Positions 10,298 to 58,124 of a stretch of DNA of 64,000 nt are shown one piece after another; position 1 is the stretch's first letter; each line of letters begins with the position of its first letter. This stretch comes from Methanolinea sp. (lineage in GTDB: Archaea > Halobacteriota > Methanomicrobia > Methanomicrobiales > Methanospirillaceae), in the NCBI GenBank assembly GCA_016699325.1, contig CP064971.1:1819636-1883635 (forward strand). Reading direction: 5' to 3'. Position numbers and translations under genes: made by a program. Below the pieces are notes generated by a model. The model was given only the letters and a program-made list of their open reading frames with translations. It was not told the origin of the DNA and did no database searches.

Positions 10298-10561
10298 TTA
10301 GATATCCCGGTAGACTGTCGAACGGTGGCGCACCATGAGGATATTCATCTTCATCGTCTCGTCGTCGAGTTCAAACAGGACACGATAATCCCCGACGCGT
10401 AACGAATAGGTGGGAGTGGACACTGCTTTTAATGGCTTGGCATATGCGCGAGGGTCTCAACACACTATCTGTATCCTCTTCAGAATGCGCTTGATAGTGA
10501 TGTGAGAAAGGTTATCAAGATCCTTATCTGCAACAGGAGTGAATTCAACAGAATACGCCAT
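10298..10561 (-). pseudogene. relE: RelE/ParE-family toxin with in-frame TGA at codon 35 (10457..10459)
   Basis: Hand translation: MAYSVEFTPVADKDLDNLSHITIKRILKRIQIVC*DPRAYAKPLKAVSTPTYSLRVGDYRVLFELDDETMKMNILMVRHRSTVYRDI. Its ATG overlaps the antitoxin stop. Confidence 0.7.
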
Positions 10562-11009: not shown

Positions 11010-11510
11010 TCAGTGAGCGGCAGAAGGGATGAAGGGATCTCCCTCAAATGCCTTCACAAGAGAGGTTAGAACAGCTAGATGATCATGTTTCGAATCGTTC
11101 AATCTTACATTCGTCTGAGGATGCTTGATCCGGGCGACAATATGCTTGATTCCATGCTGATCGAGGAACGCCTTGAAAGTATGCTGTGCCACCTCACGCT
11201 CACGTGCAGAAACGAATTGTGTGCCGTGGTCCGTGAGAATCTCCCTGGGGATCCCATACCGTGTAAATCCCATTTCCAGGACAAGAATAGTATTCCGGGT
11301 GGTGGGAGAATCGAAGACACCGTGGCAGGTGACCAGCCGGGATGAGTCATCCATGAATGCTATCAGCCATTTCTTCTGGCCATCGATTGTCACCTCTTTC
11401 CAGTCACCCTGCCAGACACCACCAAGCATTACGACATCACTCCAGGGACCTACGACTACTTCCGGCTCTCGGGGACCTCCCTTCCGACGGCAAGGGTCAT
11501 CACCGTACAA
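11010..11510 (-). pseudogene. Integrase-core (rve) DDE transposase fragment, IS481/IS3-like
   Basis: Motifs WLIAFMDDSSR...ILTDHGTQF...HPQTN. The expected GKIERF continuation is out of frame, and the N-terminus is missing. Confidence 0.75.
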
Positions 11511-19996: not shown

Positions 19997-20581
19997 TCAA
20001 CTATCATTTGCATACCACGCCATGGCGAGGTAACATATCCCGATAATGGGCATGCATACGATCCAATATACCGCCATCAGCCCGAGAGACGAGTCGATTG
20101 TGTTGTGTAGGAAATCTTGTATCAAAATAACCAAGGCAGTTGCGGCGGGAATGCACATTATTGCAGTGAGCGCGATAGATACAGACCGGGCCCGACTGGC
20201 TGCCGGGGTGGCATAGAACAACGCTATGGAACAGGGTGCGAGGAGTAAAATCCCAGCTGCCCAACCAATCCAACCTAACCCTGGAATACCACGCGGAATC
20301 GATCCTCCAATAAGGAAAAGGAACACCCCGAACATGAGAATGGCGAGAAGATCCAAAATGAGTGGGAAGATGAAATATCTTTGTAGCGGTTTTGTGAATC
20401 TCCCTAAGAGTATAAGCAGAGTACCAGCGAATGAAAGGGTGCACATCGTGATCAAGATTGCGGTAAAAAGAAACGGACCGCTATATGGGAATACCAGCAA
20501 CAATGCATAGGTAACTGGCATCCAGAAAAAAACTGCCGATGTAAGCACCAGCGGGTATTTCACAATTTGTAATCTCCCCAT
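19997..20581 (-). CDS. Polytopic membrane protein (about 6 TM helices)
   Basis: 194-aa strongly hydrophobic ORF, tightly packed between neighbouring minus-strand genes. Confidence 0.7.
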   Translation of the reverse strand: MGRLQIVKYPLVLTSAVFFWMPVTYALLLVFPYSGPFLFTAILITMCTLSFAGTLLILLGRFTKPLQRYFIFPLILDLLAILMFGVFLFLIGGSIPRGIPGLGWIGWAAGILLLAPCSIALFYATPAASRARSVSIALTAIMCIPAATALVILIQDFLHNTIDSSLGLMAVYWIVCMPIIGICYLAMAWYANDS

Positions 20582-24423: not shown

Positions 24424-25731
24424 TTATGTAATTAGACAACTTGGAAATCCATTCCATCCATGATTATCCCAATTATAACCAATCCACACATAGGGTGGCC
24501 AATTTGGTGGATTTGGTGATGTAAATTCGAATGTAGCATTTTGATAGAAACACTCATCCGGATGGAGGAAATATCCGTCATTATTCTGAACACACCATTC
24601 TTCCCTTACTGGAGAGGTGCGAGCATCCATGTATGCGGTTCCATCGTCATCTAATCCAAGTTCAGAGGAACACTCGCTGGTTAACAATGCAGTGCATGGA
24701 TTGTGGTTATCCTGATAATAATAATAGAACCATTGATCATTGTAAGGATCATGAAGCCACATTTGATATAATCCAAGGCTTTGACCAAGGTTTATTTTTA
24801 TATACCATTCGTAATTTCTTGGAAGAAGAACATAGGGGGCCTCTAAATAACATCCTGCTCCCTCGAGATGCTCTGGATTAGATGGTGTCGGCCATGGGAA
24901 AATGGCTTTATCTCCATCTTCATTGTATATTACTGGGAATATTTTAATCGGCGCGCCATCATATGAATCGCTTGAATAACTTGCAACGATTTCGATTACC
25001 ACATCATTATTGTAATAATTTTCAACCTCCTGATAGGCAATGAATCGATCCCCATCAAATGAATACACTTCCGGCCTTATTTTACCCGTTGTGTATGTGA
25101 TATTCGTCCTATTATCAAACGGGTGGAATTGCGCTCTCCATGAACAATTTTGGGGATAGATTACATCATTATAGACCATCTCATTGGAAAACGATTCTGT
25201 ATTGAGATATGAATTCTCTCTTGGACTAATAAATCCAAACACATCTTTCCCGTTTATTGAATTAAAATTTTTATAATACTTAAACTGATCTTTGGGAAAC
25301 ATCAAGCGTATGACGTCAGGATTTGGATTAAAGGAAAAAAACATCTCTTTAGGCATGCGGAATACTACAACCGGCTCATCATCCCTTAATCTTATCTCAA
25401 TGAAACGGCCCATTTGATCAACTGAAAATTGTGAATCAAACGCTATTTTAAGGATTGTTATATTGATAATATCCGGATCACTTTCTCGATTATTCTCATT
25501 TAACCATCTTTCTGAAAATATGATTGTTATAATTTCTGATTCAGGGAGTGGTTCTGCAGGTTCGAGATCCTTCGGGATCTCAAAAATTAAAGATGAATGT
25601 GCATGAGTACTTTCACGGGTATTAGTTTCATTCGGCCTAATAATAGCATCATCCCCGTATGCAGGGAAGATAAATACGCCTAATAATATTAGGATTAAGC
25701 CAATTGATTTCAGGGTTGAATTCTGTTTCAT
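24424..25731 (-). CDS. Secreted W/Y-rich protein (C-terminal half paralogous to 19202..19957)
   Basis: The signal peptide MKQNSTLKSIGLILILLGVFIFPAYG starts at 25731. The ORF track extends to 25809 only because the leader has no stop codon. Confidence 0.7.
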   Translation of the reverse strand: MKQNSTLKSIGLILILLGVFIFPAYGDDAIIRPNETNTRESTHAHSSLIFEIPKDLEPAEPLPESEIITIIFSERWLNENNRESDPDIINITILKIAFDSQFSVDQMGRFIEIRLRDDEPVVVFRMPKEMFFSFNPNPDVIRLMFPKDQFKYYKNFNSINGKDVFGFISPRENSYLNTESFSNEMVYNDVIYPQNCSWRAQFHPFDNRTNITYTTGKIRPEVYSFDGDRFIAYQEVENYYNNDVVIEIVASYSSDSYDGAPIKIFPVIYNEDGDKAIFPWPTPSNPEHLEGAGCYLEAPYVLLPRNYEWYIKINLGQSLGLYQMWLHDPYNDQWFYYYYQDNHNPCTALLTSECSSELGLDDDGTAYMDARTSPVREEWCVQNNDGYFLHPDECFYQNATFEFTSPNPPNWPPYVWIGYNWDNHGWNGFPSCLIT

Positions 25732-25914
25732 GTTTCTTTCCTCCAATTCTCTTGGATTCCAGAAGGCATGACAAAAAAGGCTTTTACTGTGGAAAGCTAA
25801 TTCCATCATGCCTACGGGCTGCGAAGGGGTTCATCTGCATTGGATGTGAGGCGAACCCCCAGCAACACTTCTCAGTTTGCCTGAATGACGAAAAACTTTC
25901 TGGTGCCGCGAATT
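25732..25914 (-). promoter_or_regulatory. Conserved ~185-nt structured 5' leader, copy A (with TATA-like TTTTAAAA just upstream at ~25913-25922)
   Basis: It aligns along its whole length with 57275..57459. Two helices (GGGGUUC/GAACCCC and AGGCAUGA/UCAUGCCU) are preserved while their loops differ. Confidence 0.6.
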
Positions 25915-26073
25915 TTAAAATGAGGGGTTTTAATCGGTTAGTTCGATGAATATTCATCTCGGTGATTAACACGATTTAACATGGAGTTAGGCAGCGTCTC
26001 ATGGACGGCACCGCATGCCGCCCGGCTCGATCCTCCAGGTGCTCTCCAACTACAATCCATCATCCCTGGTCCA

Positions 26074-54468: not shown

Positions 54469-56142
54469 TTAATAAAGATTCTGAAGTGCAGGAACATTTC
54501 CCACAATCACCAGATATGCCCGTGCCCTTGATGTGGCAACGTAAATGAGTTCCCGATCGCCTGTCATATCAGGCGTTGCAGCAATAATTACAACACGTCG
54601 CTCAAGACCTTTAAATCTTCTAATCGTATCGAGAATGAGAAAGTCAAGGTCTATTGCTTCGGCATTTCGGCATTCAACCCCATCCAATCGTGCATCTGGT
54701 GCGAATTCAGCTATTTTCTGTGCAGATGTTACAAGGACCGCAATATCTGATGGCCTGATGCGTTCTTCTGTTAACAGGTGATGTACTCTCTGATTAATGA
54801 TTGATTGAATTTCTGATGCCGAAGAAGCATGGATCCACTCTACCTCAACCCCTTCGGGTCCAATGGGCTCAATAGCAGATCCATTGTAATATTTTTGAAC
54901 TACATTGTGAATGCGACGGGTATTACGCATATTGAGTGATAATCTGAAAGGAGGCTGATTGATTTCAAGGGGCAGAACTGGAACAGTACCATAAACACTC
55001 TGGTTGCTGTCAAAAAAGATACGAAGGAATCCATCGGGATGCAGAGCTTTGTCGAGAGTTGATAACCATTCCGGGGAAAAATCCTGCCCCTCATCGACAA
55101 TTATTACATTGAATCGGTGGTTGTGAAGTATCTGAAGAGCTTTCCCCAGAATGTCAGAATATTTCCGCGCAGATAACTTTTTCTCAGAGATACCCCCCGG
55201 TAATTGAATCCCAGCTTTGTTAGCCATCTGATAACACAGTTCGTGGAATGTGACCACTCTGATATTTTTCCAGGATTCGAGACGATGATGTATATATTCG
55301 GCAAGAGGGTGATTAAAACAGAGAAATAAAATCTTTTCACCAGAACCTGCACGACGAACAGCCTCTTCCATGGCAAGTACTGTTTTTCCAGTCCCCGCTC
55401 CTCCAGAGATTGCTGCACGATGTATATCCTGGATAAATGTGAGTGTATGGAACTGCTGATATGTCAGGGTCTCAATTTGAGCATCATCCGATGCCAGTAT
55501 GTTCCCCAATGGAACATGCAGCTGGAATGGATGTGCCAGTACAGCCTCGAGGGCTCTGATCCCATCCTCCCCAAGAGGTTTTTCCTTCTGGGACAAACCA
55601 TCGATTTCGCCATATCGGTTCATCACCCATTGTCGTAAATCGGTTTCGAACTCATCCAGACAACAGAAGATAGAGCGAGGACTGTCAGGACCCAGATCTT
55701 CTCCGGGACATTCAGAATCTGGAAGAATAACTCCGTGTCTTGCTCTTATTCGTCGTGATTTCCACTTACCCGAGTCTTTCAGTTTTTTCAGGAGATGGTG
55801 TTTGCTTGTCCTCGCCTGACCAACAGGATTCTTAATCTCGTGACGCACGCCCCATCGATCCCGGCTTTTCCATTTATCCAATTTCGGATCATAACTGACT
55901 TCTCCACCCTTTACTTCAATCGCAAGAATACCCAGATTGGGGTGGGCAATCAGGAAATCGCATTCACCATCTTTTTCTTCACCAAAAGGTGTGAGACCCA
56001 GCCACGGACGTGAATAGAAAACGACAAATGAATCCTCAAGCACATCTCGAAGACGATTATAAACCCGACATTCGGCTGACCTGAGGATATTTGAGACAAT
56101 TTCAGCGGGAATCTCGCGGGGCCACATTACCGCCATCATCAA
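54469..56142 (-). CDS. NERD (PD-(D/E)xK nuclease-related) domain fused to SF1 UvrD/AAA_19-type helicase
   Basis: NERD core GECDFLIAHPNLGILAIEVKGG, Walker A GGAGTGKT, Walker B IIVDEGQDF, and C-terminal RFKGLERRVVII and YVATSRARAYLVIV. Confidence 0.85.
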   Translation of the reverse strand: MMMAVMWPREIPAEIVSNILRSAECRVYNRLRDVLEDSFVVFYSRPWLGLTPFGEEKDGECDFLIAHPNLGILAIEVKGGEVSYDPKLDKWKSRDRWGVRHEIKNPVGQARTSKHHLLKKLKDSGKWKSRRIRARHGVILPDSECPGEDLGPDSPRSIFCCLDEFETDLRQWVMNRYGEIDGLSQKEKPLGEDGIRALEAVLAHPFQLHVPLGNILASDDAQIETLTYQQFHTLTFIQDIHRAAISGGAGTGKTVLAMEEAVRRAGSGEKILFLCFNHPLAEYIHHRLESWKNIRVVTFHELCYQMANKAGIQLPGGISEKKLSARKYSDILGKALQILHNHRFNVIIVDEGQDFSPEWLSTLDKALHPDGFLRIFFDSNQSVYGTVPVLPLEINQPPFRLSLNMRNTRRIHNVVQKYYNGSAIEPIGPEGVEVEWIHASSASEIQSIINQRVHHLLTEERIRPSDIAVLVTSAQKIAEFAPDARLDGVECRNAEAIDLDFLILDTIRRFKGLERRVVIIAATPDMTGDRELIYVATSRARAYLVIVGNVPALQNLY

Positions 56143-57274
56143 CCTCTCTCAGCAAATCTGAAAAATATCCCATCCCTCTATCGTCAGGAAGCCCTACCAG
56201 CATTGCCCGATCAAGAAACCGGTTATACTGTTCGCATGACGTTTCAGGCGCCAGACAGCAGGCATGGCATGCAGACCCGGAATAGTGTTCTGGTGGGGCA
56301 ATCACCTGTTCGATACAGAGCGGATCCGAAGAGCACCACTCCATGTCCCGTATAGCAGCTCTTACCGTTGGTGAGATTCTGGCAGCTTCACCCTGACGTT
56401 GAAGACCCCCAAGCGTACCATCAGAATCAGAGGTGGCTGTATATATGAGAACTCCTGCCATATCACCGGAATCATCACTGACATATATCCTCTCTCTGAG
56501 CGATGCGCTTGAGTATCCGCATTCGAGAGTAAGCTGTCGCATAAGTGCATGAGCCCACGTGTGAACAAGGAAGTAACGTGGCGTAAGAAGAGGTGTGGAT
56601 CTGCCCTCAAAGCGTTTGTTCCATTCACGCTGCCAGCGCTCCTGGATTGCCTCTGCACGCAGTCTTATCCTTTCCTGCTGCTCCCAGCATCGGAGAGTGG
56701 TCGGGTTAAACTCCATAAAAATACCCTCTCCACGGACTTCAATTGCAGGTAACCATCGAGTTGCGTTCAATGATAGAGGAACAATGTTTCTATCGTTTTC
56801 ATCTCCACATGGATTTATTCTGGTAAATCCTCTAAGGGTAATAACCTCGTGCAGGCGCACCACTCTGACAATTTTTCTGAAATAAGGTCTTATTTCATCG
56901 GGAACTTCAACATTCCTTATCTCAAAATCGCCATCATCGTCCTGGCCGATATCAAAACCTGCAATAAGGTGCTTGTATTCCTCATACTTGAGGTTCAGCA
57001 TTTCATCTCGATGAAAATCTTCAAGTCGCTCTTCAATCATTCTAGTAAGGGATTCAGGAGTGAGGTTGAGATTCTTCAGGGTCTCTTTCAGACTTCCCCT
57101 GGCCAGAATTCGGATATATTCTGCTCTGTCGTCCGGATCTGTTTTTACCAGTTCATCCCAGTAAACTCCCAGCTCTTTCTCTGATAGTACGACTGCGCTT
57201 GCAGGCACGGCAAAGGCAAGTGCCAGCATCACGAGTGCTACTACCATTATTCCGAACTTCTTTCCTATTTTCAT
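56102..57274 (-). CDS. DUF1998 (MrfA/DrmB-type Zn-binding domain) protein with a signal-peptide-like N-terminus
   Basis: C-terminal half: HTWAHALMRQLTLECGYSSASLRERIY...GVLIYTATSDSDGTLGGL...CHACCLAPETSCEQYNRFLDR. N-terminus: MKIGKKFGIMVVALVMLALAFAVPASA. The stop overlaps the helicase start. Confidence 0.7.
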   Translation of the reverse strand: MKIGKKFGIMVVALVMLALAFAVPASAVVLSEKELGVYWDELVKTDPDDRAEYIRILARGSLKETLKNLNLTPESLTRMIEERLEDFHRDEMLNLKYEEYKHLIAGFDIGQDDDGDFEIRNVEVPDEIRPYFRKIVRVVRLHEVITLRGFTRINPCGDENDRNIVPLSLNATRWLPAIEVRGEGIFMEFNPTTLRCWEQQERIRLRAEAIQERWQREWNKRFEGRSTPLLTPRYFLVHTWAHALMRQLTLECGYSSASLRERIYVSDDSGDMAGVLIYTATSDSDGTLGGLQRQGEAARISPTVRAAIRDMEWCSSDPLCIEQVIAPPEHYSGSACHACCLAPETSCEQYNRFLDRAMLVGLPDDRGMGYFSDLLREVDDGGNVAPRDSR

Positions 57275-57459
57275 GTTTCTTTCCTCCAATTCGCTTGGAT
57301 TCCAGAAGGCATGACAAAAAAGCTTTTAATGTTTTAAGCCAATGTTTATCACGCCTACGGGCTGCAAAGGGGTTCAACATCATTCCAACGAGGTTAGAAC
57401 CCCTCGCAACAAATCTGCAATTCTCAGCAGAGCAGAAAAAACTTCTGAGGTCACGAATT
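57275..57459 (-). promoter_or_regulatory. Conserved ~185-nt structured 5' leader, copy B (TATA-like TTATTTTTAC at ~57460-57470)
   Basis: Homologous to 25732..25914, including the identical CUUCUGGAAUCCAAG.GAAUUGGAGGAAAGAAACAUGAAA at the 3' end. Confidence 0.6.
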
Positions 57460-57779
57460 GTAAAAATAACCCCTTAAATTAGATAGTATCACTTAGTGAT
57501 TAAATTAATATTAATCAAAGAAATTAATTGCTTTTTATGAGTATTTTACTGTGCGATTATCAGGATGAGTGAGGCACCAAAGTTGTATTGATGAGCCTCA
57601 TTTCAGGACAAATTAGGTAGTCCGAAAATAGTATGTTTCATCCGGGAGGGTTAAGAGACGGCCAGAACGGCGATGAAGCGGTGATACTGGTCTCATCTTG
57701 CCGACCCTGGGAACCTGTGGCGCAAAGGGGGCAGGAGCCAAAAACCAAAATAAAAGGTTATTATTGTGGGTGAAGAAAT

Positions 57780-58124
57780 TTACCCCGATTTTGATGTTGT
57801 ATCAGCAAAACAAATATCATAAAGGAATGGAGAGGCGGGATCCGTCTTGTACCATGGGCCACGTTCTTCCCAGATTTTCTGCAGTAGTGTTGATTTATCC
57901 CATATGCTCGGTGCCATATCCTGTCCCTGAGACGGTCCAGGAGTTGGTAAAGGCGGTTGGGCGGGCATAATTGGCAACCCTGACGGTAGTTGAGAAGGCG
58001 CAGTGGTCGGAATGGATTGGCTCTTGTAGGCTGAAATCAGATCAGCTTTACTAATTCCGGCGACGGGTGACCAGACAATAATCAGGATAACAACTAAGCA
58101 TATAATAACGGGCCACATTTTCAT
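57780..58124 (-). CDS. Small secreted or membrane-anchored Pro-rich protein
   Basis: N-terminal TM MKMWPVIICLVVILIIVWSPVAG, then a P/Q/S-rich segment. I recognise no family. Confidence 0.5.
   Translation of the reverse strand: MKMWPVIICLVVILIIVWSPVAGISKADLISAYKSQSIPTTAPSQLPSGLPIMPAQPPLPTPGPSQGQDMAPSIWDKSTLLQKIWEERGPWYKTDPASPFLYDICFADTTSKSG

What the first reader, a model, noticed from the sequence alone, without database searches (positions are those of the whole stretch)
25732..25914. ~185-nt conserved, apparently structured 5' leader shared by two unrelated AT-rich operons (second copy at 57275..57459)
- The segments upstream of the ATGs at 25731 and 57274 (both minus strand) align over ~185 nt.
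- The alignment runs from a TATA-like box down to an identical CUUCUGGAAUCCAAG.GAAUUGGAGGAAAGAAACAUGAAA. The coding sequences after codon 2 are unrelated.
- In RNA sense, two helices are kept while their loops diverge.
- The first helix is GGGGUUC...GAACCCC, with loops of 20 and 21 nt that differ in sequence.
- The second helix is AGGC(A/G)UGA...UCAUGCCU. Its single arm difference turns an A-U pair into a G-U wobble.
- A small GCC-CGUA-GGC hairpin is also shared.
- This pattern suggests a cis-regulatory RNA or a portable promoter/leader cassette, not random repeat DNA.
Basis: seen in the sequence. Interest (0 to 1): 0.62.

Follow-up and report, generated by a model that had tools for sequence, protein, structure and literature searches.

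The report
Shared structured mRNA leader in methanogens
The two look-alike segments belong to an undescribed family of promoter plus folded 5' untranslated leader that sits in front of many unrelated secreted-protein genes in Methanolinea-type methanogens, and its two main RNA hairpins are kept by compensatory mutations.

Summary
Both segments (about 25729-25990 and 57272-57533, minus strand) align. A 53-nt block ending in ATGAAA is identical except for one base.

The pair belongs to a family. A covariance model found 16 distinct copies in about 150 kb of related Methanoregulaceae/Methanolinea-type DNA. Each full-length copy lies directly upstream of a gene for a protein with a signal peptide, and copies often form tandem leader-gene arrays.

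Two long hairpins, P1 and P2, are well supported:
- 85.7% of cells are paired.
- 25 of 38 pairs show compensatory changes.
- No shuffle out of 500 reached the observed values.
- G-U pairs far outnumber A-C, which points to RNA on the sense strand.

There is no Rfam, phage or plasmid match, no IS or MITE ends, and no conserved reading frame.

A TATA-like box lies about 30 nt before P1, so P1 should sit at the mRNA 5' end. Metatranscriptome contigs show that the copy A operon is strongly expressed. Their 5' boundary at 25850-25853 lies inside the P1 loop.

Copy B is the leader plus a signal peptide fused to a 5'-truncated DUF1998 (DrmB-like) gene, so the module has moved.

Best reading: a co-regulated expression module whose leader stabilises the mRNA and gates its translation. 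That function is inferred, not shown.

The parts
25945..25958 (-). Copy A: 14-bp perfect palindrome GATGAATATTCATC, followed by GAAC. Probable transcription-factor site.
   Evidence: Read. The same box occurs in 1-3 copies, at the same relative place, upstream of most family members.
25913..25920 (-). Copy A: upstream A/T box TTTTAAAA. It may be a second promoter element or part of the regulatory region.
   Evidence: Similar boxes (TTTAAAT, TTATTTTGAAA) are present in several copies but are absent from copies J, K, D and H.
25890..25902 (-). Copy A: conserved box CAGAAAGTTTTTC. Proposed BRE/TATA element, centred about 30 nt before P1.
   Evidence: The box lies at -25 to -35 from the first P1 pair in 13 of 16 copies. 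In L030 a canonical TTTTATAT occupies the same place.
25819..25865 (-). Copy A: helix P1. It has an outer stem UUGCUG/UUCGCAG, an inner stem GGGGUUC/GAACCCC and a 20-nt variable loop containing CCUC and UCCAAU.
   Evidence: Fold. Covariation: 9 of 13 pairs have compensatory changes and 88% of cells are paired. G-U 25 against A-C 7.
25850..25853 (-). Copy A: 5' boundary of the abundant RNA. It lies inside the P1 loop and is either a processing site or a truncated read-out of the true 5' end.
   Evidence: RNA contigs end at 25850 in X25, X26, X31 and X40, and at 25853 in X30. Depth is 61-74 downstream in X25/X26 (8-36 in the other three) against 0-3 upstream.
25810..25819 (-). Copy A: GCCCGUAGGC linker, near-invariant in the family (GCCCGWAGGC). 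It can form a GCC/GGC mini-hairpin or supply the base of P2.
   Evidence: GCCCG-AGGC is invariant in the 8-copy alignment. The 16-copy alignment agrees except for J, K and L028.
25759..25817 (-). Copy A: helix P2. It comprises AGGCAUGAUGGAA/UUUUUUGUCAUGCCU, the tip GCUUU/AAAGC and a 2-bp extension. Its 3' arm carries a U6 run.
   Evidence: Fold. Covariation: 8 of 13 pairs compensatory and 92.7% of cells paired. RNAalifold recovers it independently. G-U 20 against A-C 2.
25762..25766 (-). Copy A: CCUUC at the 3' foot of P2, complementary to the Shine-Dalgarno sequence GGAGG.
   Evidence: CCUYC or CCCUC follows P2 in every full-length copy. The pairing is inferred, because the Shine-Dalgarno side does not vary and so cannot show covariation.
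25740..25756 (-). Copy A: small hairpin P3 (UCCAA/UUGGA), overlapping the Shine-Dalgarno GGAGG at 25740-25744.
   Evidence: It is the weakest helix (69% of cells paired). In copies H, J, K, G and N it is replaced by a different hairpin that covers the Shine-Dalgarno sequence.
24424..25731 (-). Copy A gene: 435-aa protein with a signal peptide and no known domain. It is the first gene of an expressed operon.
   Evidence: One RNA contig runs on into the next gene.
57503..57516 (-). Copy B: degenerate palindromic box GATTAATATTAATT.
57435..57447 (-). Copy B: box CAGAAGTTTTTTC, proposed BRE/TATA element.
57362..57409 (-). Copy B: helix P1, UUGCGA-GGGGUUC ... GAACCCC-UUUGCAG, with a 21-nt loop.
   Evidence: In one low-depth run an RNA contig ends at 57413, 4 nt before P1. 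That locus also shows read-through transcripts.
57307..57356 (-). Copy B: helix P2, AGGCGUGAUAAAC.../...UUUUUUGUCAUGCCU.
57283..57299 (-). Copy B: hairpin P3 and the Shine-Dalgarno GGAGG.
56102..57274 (-). Copy B gene: a 27-aa signal peptide fused to the C-terminal ~360-370 residues of a DUF1998 (DrmB-like) protein.
   Evidence: Pfam MZB/DUF1998 domain. Residues 8-377 align with residues 246-615 of ~615-aa homologues at 61% identity.

Best explanation
The two segments are members of a previously undescribed family of expression modules in Methanoregulaceae/Methanolinea-type methanogens.

Each module has three parts:
- one to three copies of a 14-bp palindrome, probably a transcription-factor site;
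- an archaeal promoter, with a BRE/TATA-like box about 30 nt before helix P1;
- a 5' untranslated leader of about 135-140 nt.

The leader folds into a GC-rich hairpin P1 within a few nucleotides of the 5' end and a long hairpin P2. A short element then partly covers a strong Shine-Dalgarno sequence just before ATG AAA.

The module drives genes for unrelated secreted proteins in AT-rich variable islands.

Shown here: the family exists, P1 and P2 are under selection as sense-strand RNA helices, and the leader is co-transcribed with a strongly expressed operon.

Inferred: the 5'-terminal hairpin and P2 protect the mRNA from 5' decay. Together with the CCUYC sequence complementary to the Shine-Dalgarno sequence, and possibly a cleavage in the P1 loop, they set how much is translated. 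The palindrome would place all members under one regulator.

Because the modules are alike, they also serve as recombination points. Payload genes get exchanged there, or, as in copy B, get captured.
For: Family and structure:
- Two copies in the window against 0 expected.
- 16 distinct copies in related loci, at 45-142 bits.
- Structure counts on 16 copies: 85.7% of cells paired, 25 of 38 pairs with changes on both sides, 0 of 500 shuffles as high, and slid controls at 37-48%.
- RNAalifold recovers the P1 inner stem and P2 on its own, with 14 of 21 pairs compensatory.
- G-U against A-C is 25:7 in P1 and 20:2 in P2.
- Fold z-scores are -3.4, -5.3 and -3.0 for copies A, B and D.

Promoter:
- The conserved box lies at -25 to -35 from P1 in 13 of 16 copies.
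- In L030 a canonical TTTTATAT replaces it at the same place.

Expression:
- RNA contigs of depth 61-74 cover the leader and operon of copy A, against 0-4 just upstream.
- The result repeats in four more runs.

Downstream genes:
- Every downstream gene starts with a signal peptide.

Portability:
- Copy B is fused to a truncated DUF1998 gene.
- Copies C and E share only the leader plus 39 residues of signal peptide.
- One strain joins the H coding sequence to a D-like leader.

Precedent:
- Long 5' UTRs of methanogen mRNAs are cleaved, which changes stability and translation (PMC5499594).
Against: - No experiment or read-level 5'-end map exists. Only assembled RNA contigs were available.
- The abundant RNA of copy A starts at 25850-25853, inside the P1 loop. 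P1 may therefore be absent from the mature mRNA, which fits a simple 5'-hairpin stabiliser less well than a processing signal.
- One run extends to 25915. The copy C contig ends disagree with each other, 2820 against 2777.
- Predicted Shine-Dalgarno accessibility (0.2-0.56) is not clearly different from shuffled-upstream controls.
- P3 and the P2 tip show little covariation.
- The structure counts were made on an alignment fitted to the model, which favours the structure.
- The palindrome has no identified binding protein.
Confidence: 0.6

Rival explanations
1. The leader is a riboswitch-like or protein-binding translational switch. The near-invariant GCCCGWAGGC either forms its own GCC/GGC mini-hairpin or supplies the base of P2. 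When the P2 base opens, GCCUYC is freed to pair with GGAGG and block the ribosome. A ligand, a protein or temperature would choose between the two states.
For: - A 10-nt near-invariant linker lies between two helices that otherwise vary freely.
- CCUYC sits directly 3' of P2 in every full-length copy. Its two variable positions only take bases that still pair with G.
- Hairpins covering the Shine-Dalgarno sequence take different forms in copies H, J, K, G and N.
- RNAalifold on 8 copies picks the CCUYC:GGAGG helix.
Against: - The switch cannot be tested by covariation, because both partners are fixed.
- Shine-Dalgarno accessibility is no lower than in shuffled controls for most copies.
- The loops and junctions vary, unlike typical ligand pockets.
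- No candidate ligand or binding protein is known.
- There is no Rfam match even at a loose threshold.
Confidence: 0.2
2. Conservation is mainly at the DNA level. The block would be an upstream homology region maintained by gene conversion, serving to exchange payload genes among cassettes, with no role for the RNA fold.
For: - Mosaic relationships exist. Copies C and E share the leader and signal peptide only.
- A strain-level joint links the H coding sequence to a D-like leader.
- Copy B lies at a deletion breakpoint.
- Relatives carry tandem arrays of leader-gene units.
Against: - Gene conversion homogenises sequence and does not produce compensatory double changes. 25 of 38 pairs show such changes.
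- The strong excess of G-U over A-C is specific to one strand.
- Loops diverge while stems are kept.
Confidence: 0.12
3. The leader yields a separate stable small RNA, released from the 5' UTR by cleavage or by termination at the U-run, that acts in trans. The mRNA would be secondary.
For: - In X40 an 88-nt leader contig (25763-25850) has depth 36, against 14 for the coding sequence.
- A U6 run lies in the 3' arm of P2.
- RNA 5' ends are sharp at 25850.
Against: - The X40 excess is partly explained by a second, near-identical copy that shares that contig.
- In X25, X26 and X31 the leader and coding sequence lie on one contig, which carries a single mean depth.
- Copy D lacks the U-run.
Confidence: 0.05
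4. The segment is the end of a mobile element (IS or MITE) or an integron-type attC recombination site.
For: - It is repeated and lies in islands that also carry IS copies.
- Hairpins between the genes of an array superficially resemble attC sites.
Against: - No terminal inverted repeats or target duplications flank either copy.
- No reading frame is conserved.
- There is no match in the phage or plasmid collections.
- No gene in the fetched loci has an integrase Pfam hit on record.
- Every element carries its own promoter box, Shine-Dalgarno sequence and start codon.
- By eye, no RYYYAAC/GTTRRRY core sites are present.
Confidence: 0.03

Closest known systems
5'-terminal stabiliser leaders of mRNAs for abundant exported proteins (E. 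coli ompA 5' UTR, B. subtilis aprE leader, S-layer gene leaders). Recalled from my own knowledge.
   Same: A long untranslated leader in front of a secreted-protein gene, a stable hairpin within a few nucleotides of the predicted 5' end, a strong Shine-Dalgarno sequence and high transcript abundance.
   Different: This one is archaeal and has no sequence relation to those leaders. It is shared by many unrelated genes rather than belonging to one gene. The abundant RNA appears to start inside the first hairpin. No half-life has been measured.
Processed long 5' UTRs of methanogen mRNAs (Methanolobus psychrophilus rpsO, rps17e, cpn60; PMC5499594)
   Same: A long structured 5' UTR in a methanogen and a discrete 5' end inside it. 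The copy A site UUCGC|CUCAC fits 5 of the 6 specified positions of the reported motif UNMND|NUNAY. In that paper, cleavage removes structure and raises stability or translation.
   Different: The reported sites mostly lie 20-30 nt before the start codon, whereas this one lies about 120 nt upstream. Those UTRs are gene-specific and are not a shared family. Processing is inferred here from contig ends only.
Conserved 5' regions of variable surface-protein gene families (Mycoplasma vsp/vlp 5' regions, Borrelia hermsii upstream homology sequence). Recalled from my own knowledge.
   Same: A highly conserved block covers the promoter or 5' UTR, the start codon and sometimes the signal peptide, in front of divergent coding regions. 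The block coincides with recombination breakpoints.
   Different: There are no silent copies and no single expression site, because every copy has its own promoter box. The payloads are unrelated proteins rather than variants of one protein. RNA-level covariation is present.
Mobile promoter elements such as the phage-associated promoter element upstream of lscB/lscC in Pseudomonas syringae (PMC3973379; seen in the search list only, not read)
   Same: An upstream block that carries expression signals and is found in front of more than one gene.
   Different: The organism is different, the sequences are unrelated, and no structured RNA is claimed there. I did not read the paper beyond its abstract line.

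Membership tests
Any Rfam 15 RNA family | Score at or above the family's gathering threshold | tested here: not met
   There were 0 hits in the whole window at the gathering threshold. A loose scan of 25700-25990 gave only three eukaryotic lncRNA noise hits of 11-12 bits.
IS element or MITE terminus | Terminal inverted repeats and flanking target-site duplication | tested here: not met
   The repeat finder on both copies shows no bounding inverted or direct repeats.
IS element or MITE terminus | Similarity to known mobile DNA | tested here: not met
   No blastn match in 72,556 plasmid records or 50,697 phage records. ISfinder was not available.
Integron attC site | Linked integron integrase, and R''/R' core sites (RYYYAAC ... 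GTTRRRY) at the hairpin base | tested here: not met
   No gene with an integrase Pfam hit is listed in the fetched loci. The hairpin bases read xGCxG/CxGCx and GGC/GCC. The core-site check was by eye only.
Protein-coding sequence (small ORF, either strand) | A reading frame kept open across members | tested here: not met
   No frame on either strand is free of stops across 11 copies.
Structured cis-acting 5' leader RNA (general kind) | Helices maintained by compensatory substitutions on the transcribed strand | tested here: met
   25 of 38 pairs are compensatory, 85.7% of cells are paired, and 0 of 500 shuffles reach these values. The de novo RNAalifold structure agrees. G-U exceeds A-C.
Structured cis-acting 5' leader RNA (general kind) | Transcribed as part of the downstream mRNA | tested here: met
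   Single RNA contigs span from 25850 through the coding sequence of copy A in several metatranscriptomes. The part 5' of 25850 is seen only at low depth.
5'-terminal stabiliser hairpin (ompA/aprE type) | Hairpin within about 4 nt of the primary 5' end, and longer mRNA half-life because of it | tested here: inconclusive
   The position of the TATA-like box predicts a start 3-5 nt before P1. One copy B contig ends 4 nt before P1. The copy A contigs, however, start in the P1 loop. Half-life cannot be tested with these tools.
Riboswitch | Conserved ligand pocket and ligand-dependent alternative pairing | not testable with these tools
   Only a near-invariant 10-nt linker and a plausible alternative pairing were seen. 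No ligand is known.
Kink-turn (L7Ae-binding) motif in the P2 internal loop | A 3-nt bulge followed by tandem sheared G-A pairs on both strands | tested here: not met
   Neither strand of the loop (CCCGUAGGC / GCCUUCUGG) carries the GA dinucleotides. This was checked by inspecting.

The most novel reading that the evidence does not exclude
The leader is a new class of archaeal riboregulator dedicated to a variable secretome. It would be a ligand-, protein- or processing-controlled switch, with GCCCGWAGGC, the P2 base and the CCUYC sequence competing for pairing. One palindrome-binding regulator would act with it to turn a whole array of exchangeable secreted-protein cassettes on and off together. 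The shared leader would double as the recombination handle that lets new payloads plug in.
Probability: 0.2. Interest if true: 0.8.

Novelty: new member of a known kind. Interest (0 to 1): 0.55.

Why it matters
- Few structured cis-acting RNAs are known in archaea, and almost none outside model species. This is a well-supported new one, found in methanogens that are widespread in anaerobic digesters and expressed there.
- It marks a set of strongly transcribed secreted proteins of unknown function in fast-changing genomic islands.
- It offers a compact natural promoter-leader-signal-peptide module that could be tested as an expression tool in methanogens.
- It shows how a shared leader can act as a junction for swapping or capturing genes. 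Copy B records such an event at the breakpoint of a decayed defence operon.

Tried and rejected
The window's own genome and its relatives could not be searched whole, so copy number per genome is only a lower bound. Two copies were seen at 80% likeness or more in DNA runs where this organism is abundant.

Searches that found little or nothing:
- The first genome contigs pattern found nothing. It required CTGG, where some relatives have CTCG.
- The metagenome-contig scan returned only another sample of copy A.
- The viral-contig scan found nothing.
- Rfam found nothing.

Mapping the transcription start from RNA contigs:
- Copy A gives a clean boundary at 25850-25853, but one run reaches 25915.
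- Copy B is weakly expressed and has read-through transcripts and adapter-bounded fragments.
- Copies C, D and H are confounded by strain mixtures, repeats and read-through.

Other analyses:
- Plain MAFFT misaligned the 3' arm of P2 in the C-type copies and hid P2 from RNAalifold. A covariance-model alignment was needed.
- Shine-Dalgarno accessibility by partition function gave no clear signal.
- Downstream proteins have no Pfam domain and no PDB relative. AlphaFold2 on a 5-sequence alignment of the copy A protein gave mean pLDDT 29.7, which is unusable, so no fold search was run.

Readings considered and rejected: antisense ORF, MITE or IS end, attC site, kink-turn.

Full report
**Observation**

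On the minus strand, the segments upstream of the ATGs at 25731 and 57274 align over about 290 columns at 80% identity. The last 53 nt before and including ATGAAA are identical except for one base. Each of two core patterns occurs exactly twice in the 64-kb window, against none in 100 shuffles.

- GGGGTTC/GAACCCC is present, with loops of 20 and 21 nt that differ in sequence.
- AGGC(A/G)TGA/TCATGCCT is present, with one A-U to G-U change.
- GCC-CGTA-GGC is shared.
- The two proteins are unrelated.

Both copies head AT-rich segments (GC about 0.38-0.48) in a genome of about 0.6 GC. The similarity extends further upstream than reported, to about 25990 and 57533.

**Tools and organism**

Exact-protein look-ups and run indexing place the window in an organism that is widespread in activated-sludge and anaerobic-digester metagenomes. 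A pattern scan of species-representative genomes hit one locus in three assemblies. Their labels are Methanoregulaceae archaeon, Methanolinea sp. SDB, and a probably mis-binned Syntrophaceae bin. That locus shares a 6-TM membrane protein gene with the window at 95% nucleotide identity.

**A family, not a pair**

I used that membrane protein as an anchor and fetched related contigs. A profile search and then a covariance model found further copies.

Homologues of the copy A protein carry the leader too. They include some that NCBI labels Methanoculleus sp.

The final set is 16 distinct copies in about 150 kb. In relatives they form arrays:
- three in 4.5 kb in L014;
- three in L015;
- two in L022;
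- two in L027.

Every downstream gene begins with a signal peptide. None of those tested has a Pfam domain except one DUF6345 and the DUF1998 part of copy B.

**Structure**

Single-sequence folds of copies A, B and D are more stable than shuffles, with z-scores of -3.4, -5.3 and -3.0.

The model has these parts:
- P1: an outer stem of about 6 bp and an inner GGGGUUC/GAACCCC stem, with a variable loop of about 20 nt.
- A near-invariant linker, GCCCGWAGGC.
- P2: a hairpin of 13 bp or more, with a GCUUU/AAAGC tip. Its 3' arm holds a U-run.
- P3: a short hairpin or an equivalent element overlapping the Shine-Dalgarno GGAGG.

Counts on the 16-copy alignment:
- 85.7% of cells are paired.
- 25 of 38 pairs show changes on both sides.
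- None of 500 shuffles reaches any of the five measures.
- Slid controls pair at only 37-48%.

P1 has 9 of 13 pairs with compensatory changes and P2 has 8 of 13. The P2 tip and P3 are weak.

The alignment was fitted to the model, which favours it. However, RNAalifold run freely on the 13-copy alignment recovers the P1 inner stem and P2, with 14 of 21 pairs compensatory. The first compensatory changes were also visible by eye before any model existed, for example GGCAUGA/UCAUGCC against GGCAAGGAA/UUCCUUGCC.

G-U pairs outnumber A-C by 25:7 in P1 and 20:2 in P2. The helices therefore belong to the sense-strand RNA.

**What it is not**

- There is no Rfam family at the gathering threshold or at a loose threshold.
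- No frame is open across copies on either strand.
- There are no terminal inverted repeats or target duplications.
- There is no match in the plasmid or phage collections.
- No gene in the fetched loci has an integrase Pfam hit on record.
- There is no kink-turn signature.

**Promoter and 5' end**

A conserved box, CAGAAAGTWTTTC, lies at -25 to -35 from the first P1 pair in 13 of 16 copies. In L030 a canonical TTTTATAT sits in exactly that place. With the usual archaeal spacing of about 26 nt (established knowledge), transcription should start 3-5 nt before P1. That is about 25868-25870 for copy A and 57412-57414 for copy B.

The palindrome is a probable regulator site.

Only assembled RNA contigs were available. 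For copy A:
- Contigs of depth 61-74 run from the operon up to exactly 25850 in X25 and X26, with 0-4 upstream.
- X31 and X40 also end at 25850, X30 at 25853, X27 at 25837 and X28 at 25778.
- One run (X29) reaches 25915.

The abundant RNA therefore starts in the P1 loop. Because P1 behaves as an RNA helix, the primary transcript must include it. The boundary is then either a cleavage site or the loss of the last 15-20 nt during library construction.

Cleavage inside long 5' UTRs, with effects on stability and translation, is documented in a methanogen (PMC5499594). The site UUCGC|CUCAC fits 5 of the 6 specified positions of that paper's loose motif.

For copy B, one low-depth contig ends at 57413, which fits the predicted start. 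That locus also shows read-through. Copies C, D and H were uninformative.

**Portability**

The copy B protein is a 27-residue signal peptide joined to residues ~246-615 of a ~615-aa DUF1998 protein, at 61% identity. The leader sits at the breakpoint.

Copies C and E share the leader and 39 residues of signal peptide, but their mature proteins are unrelated.

In one metatranscriptome the H coding sequence is joined to a D-like leader.

One copy (L027 2227-2337) keeps P1 but lacks P2.

**Mechanism**

Shown:
- a conserved module with RNA-level selection on P1 and P2;
- co-transcription with an expressed operon;
- exclusive association with signal-peptide genes;
- involvement in gene rearrangements.

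Inferred: the leader stabilises the mRNA and sets translation.

CCUYC directly after P2 is complementary to GGAGG in every full-length copy. The linker GCCCGWAGGC could compete with the P2 base, which would give a switch. This cannot be tested by covariation, and predicted Shine-Dalgarno accessibility is not distinctive.

**Verdict**

This is a real, new family of structured 5' leader with its promoter. It is a new member of a known kind of element. Its exact function is open.

Noticed in passing
window 56102-57274 (-): The copy B gene is a chimera. Codons 1-27 form a textbook signal peptide (ending ASA) and the rest equals the C-terminal ~60% of DUF1998/DrmB-like proteins. The leader lies exactly at the deletion breakpoint of a decayed DISARM-like operon.
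   Followed up: partly
L014 2646-7078; L015 3062-11473; L022 15221-19564; L027 2227-3539: In relatives, leader-gene units stand in arrays 1-4 kb apart. Most are in tandem. In L015 one pair is divergent (G on the minus strand at 10477, F on the plus strand at 11328).
   Followed up: partly
L014 2651 (-) versus L015 3204 (+): Two genes share the leader and the first 39 residues (74% identical). After that their mature proteins are unrelated. The L015 protein is instead 43% identical to the product of another leader copy in the same locus (G).
   Followed up: partly
L027 2227-2337 (+): A natural leader variant keeps P1 but lacks the linker, P2 and P3. It runs straight into its own GGAGG and ATG in front of a 150-aa secreted protein.
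   Followed up: no
L019 6438-6640 (+): A GC-rich leader copy has a fully compensated P2 (GGCGAAAGAG/CUCUUUUGCC) and a 6-bp hairpin covering the Shine-Dalgarno sequence. It is followed by a 14-codon upstream ORF whose stop codon overlaps the ATG of a DUF6345 gene.
   Followed up: no
L022 19435 (-): One copy has AAG where its near-identical paralogue (L022 15226) has the ATG start. The gene was called from an upstream in-frame ATG inside the leader.
   Followed up: no
window 25809; L011 689: A strain polymorphism lies in P2 of copy A. It is A in the window and G in another sample, changing an A-U pair to G-U. This is the same state as in copy B.
   Followed up: no
window 19997-20581 (-); L014 616-1203: A 194-aa six-helix membrane protein with no known family is 95% identical at the DNA level between genomes whose neighbouring secreted-protein genes have been replaced. 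It served as the anchor for finding leader arrays and may belong to the same system.
   Followed up: partly
L014 6941/4470 joint in run X70: An RNA contig of depth 665 joins the H coding sequence to a D-like leader through 21 other bases. This indicates a recombinant leader in another strain.
   Followed up: no
window 25726-25792, run X40: A further expressed copy shares this stretch of the copy A leader with two differences. It continues into a different gene, which starts MKRIKQRIFLAL. It comes from another organism or strain in that sample.
   Followed up: no
window 57780-58124 (-): A small 114-aa secreted, proline-rich protein gene just upstream of copy B has a canonical TTTATATA box about 30 nt before its ATG. 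It shows what an ordinary short-leader promoter looks like in this genome.
   Followed up: no
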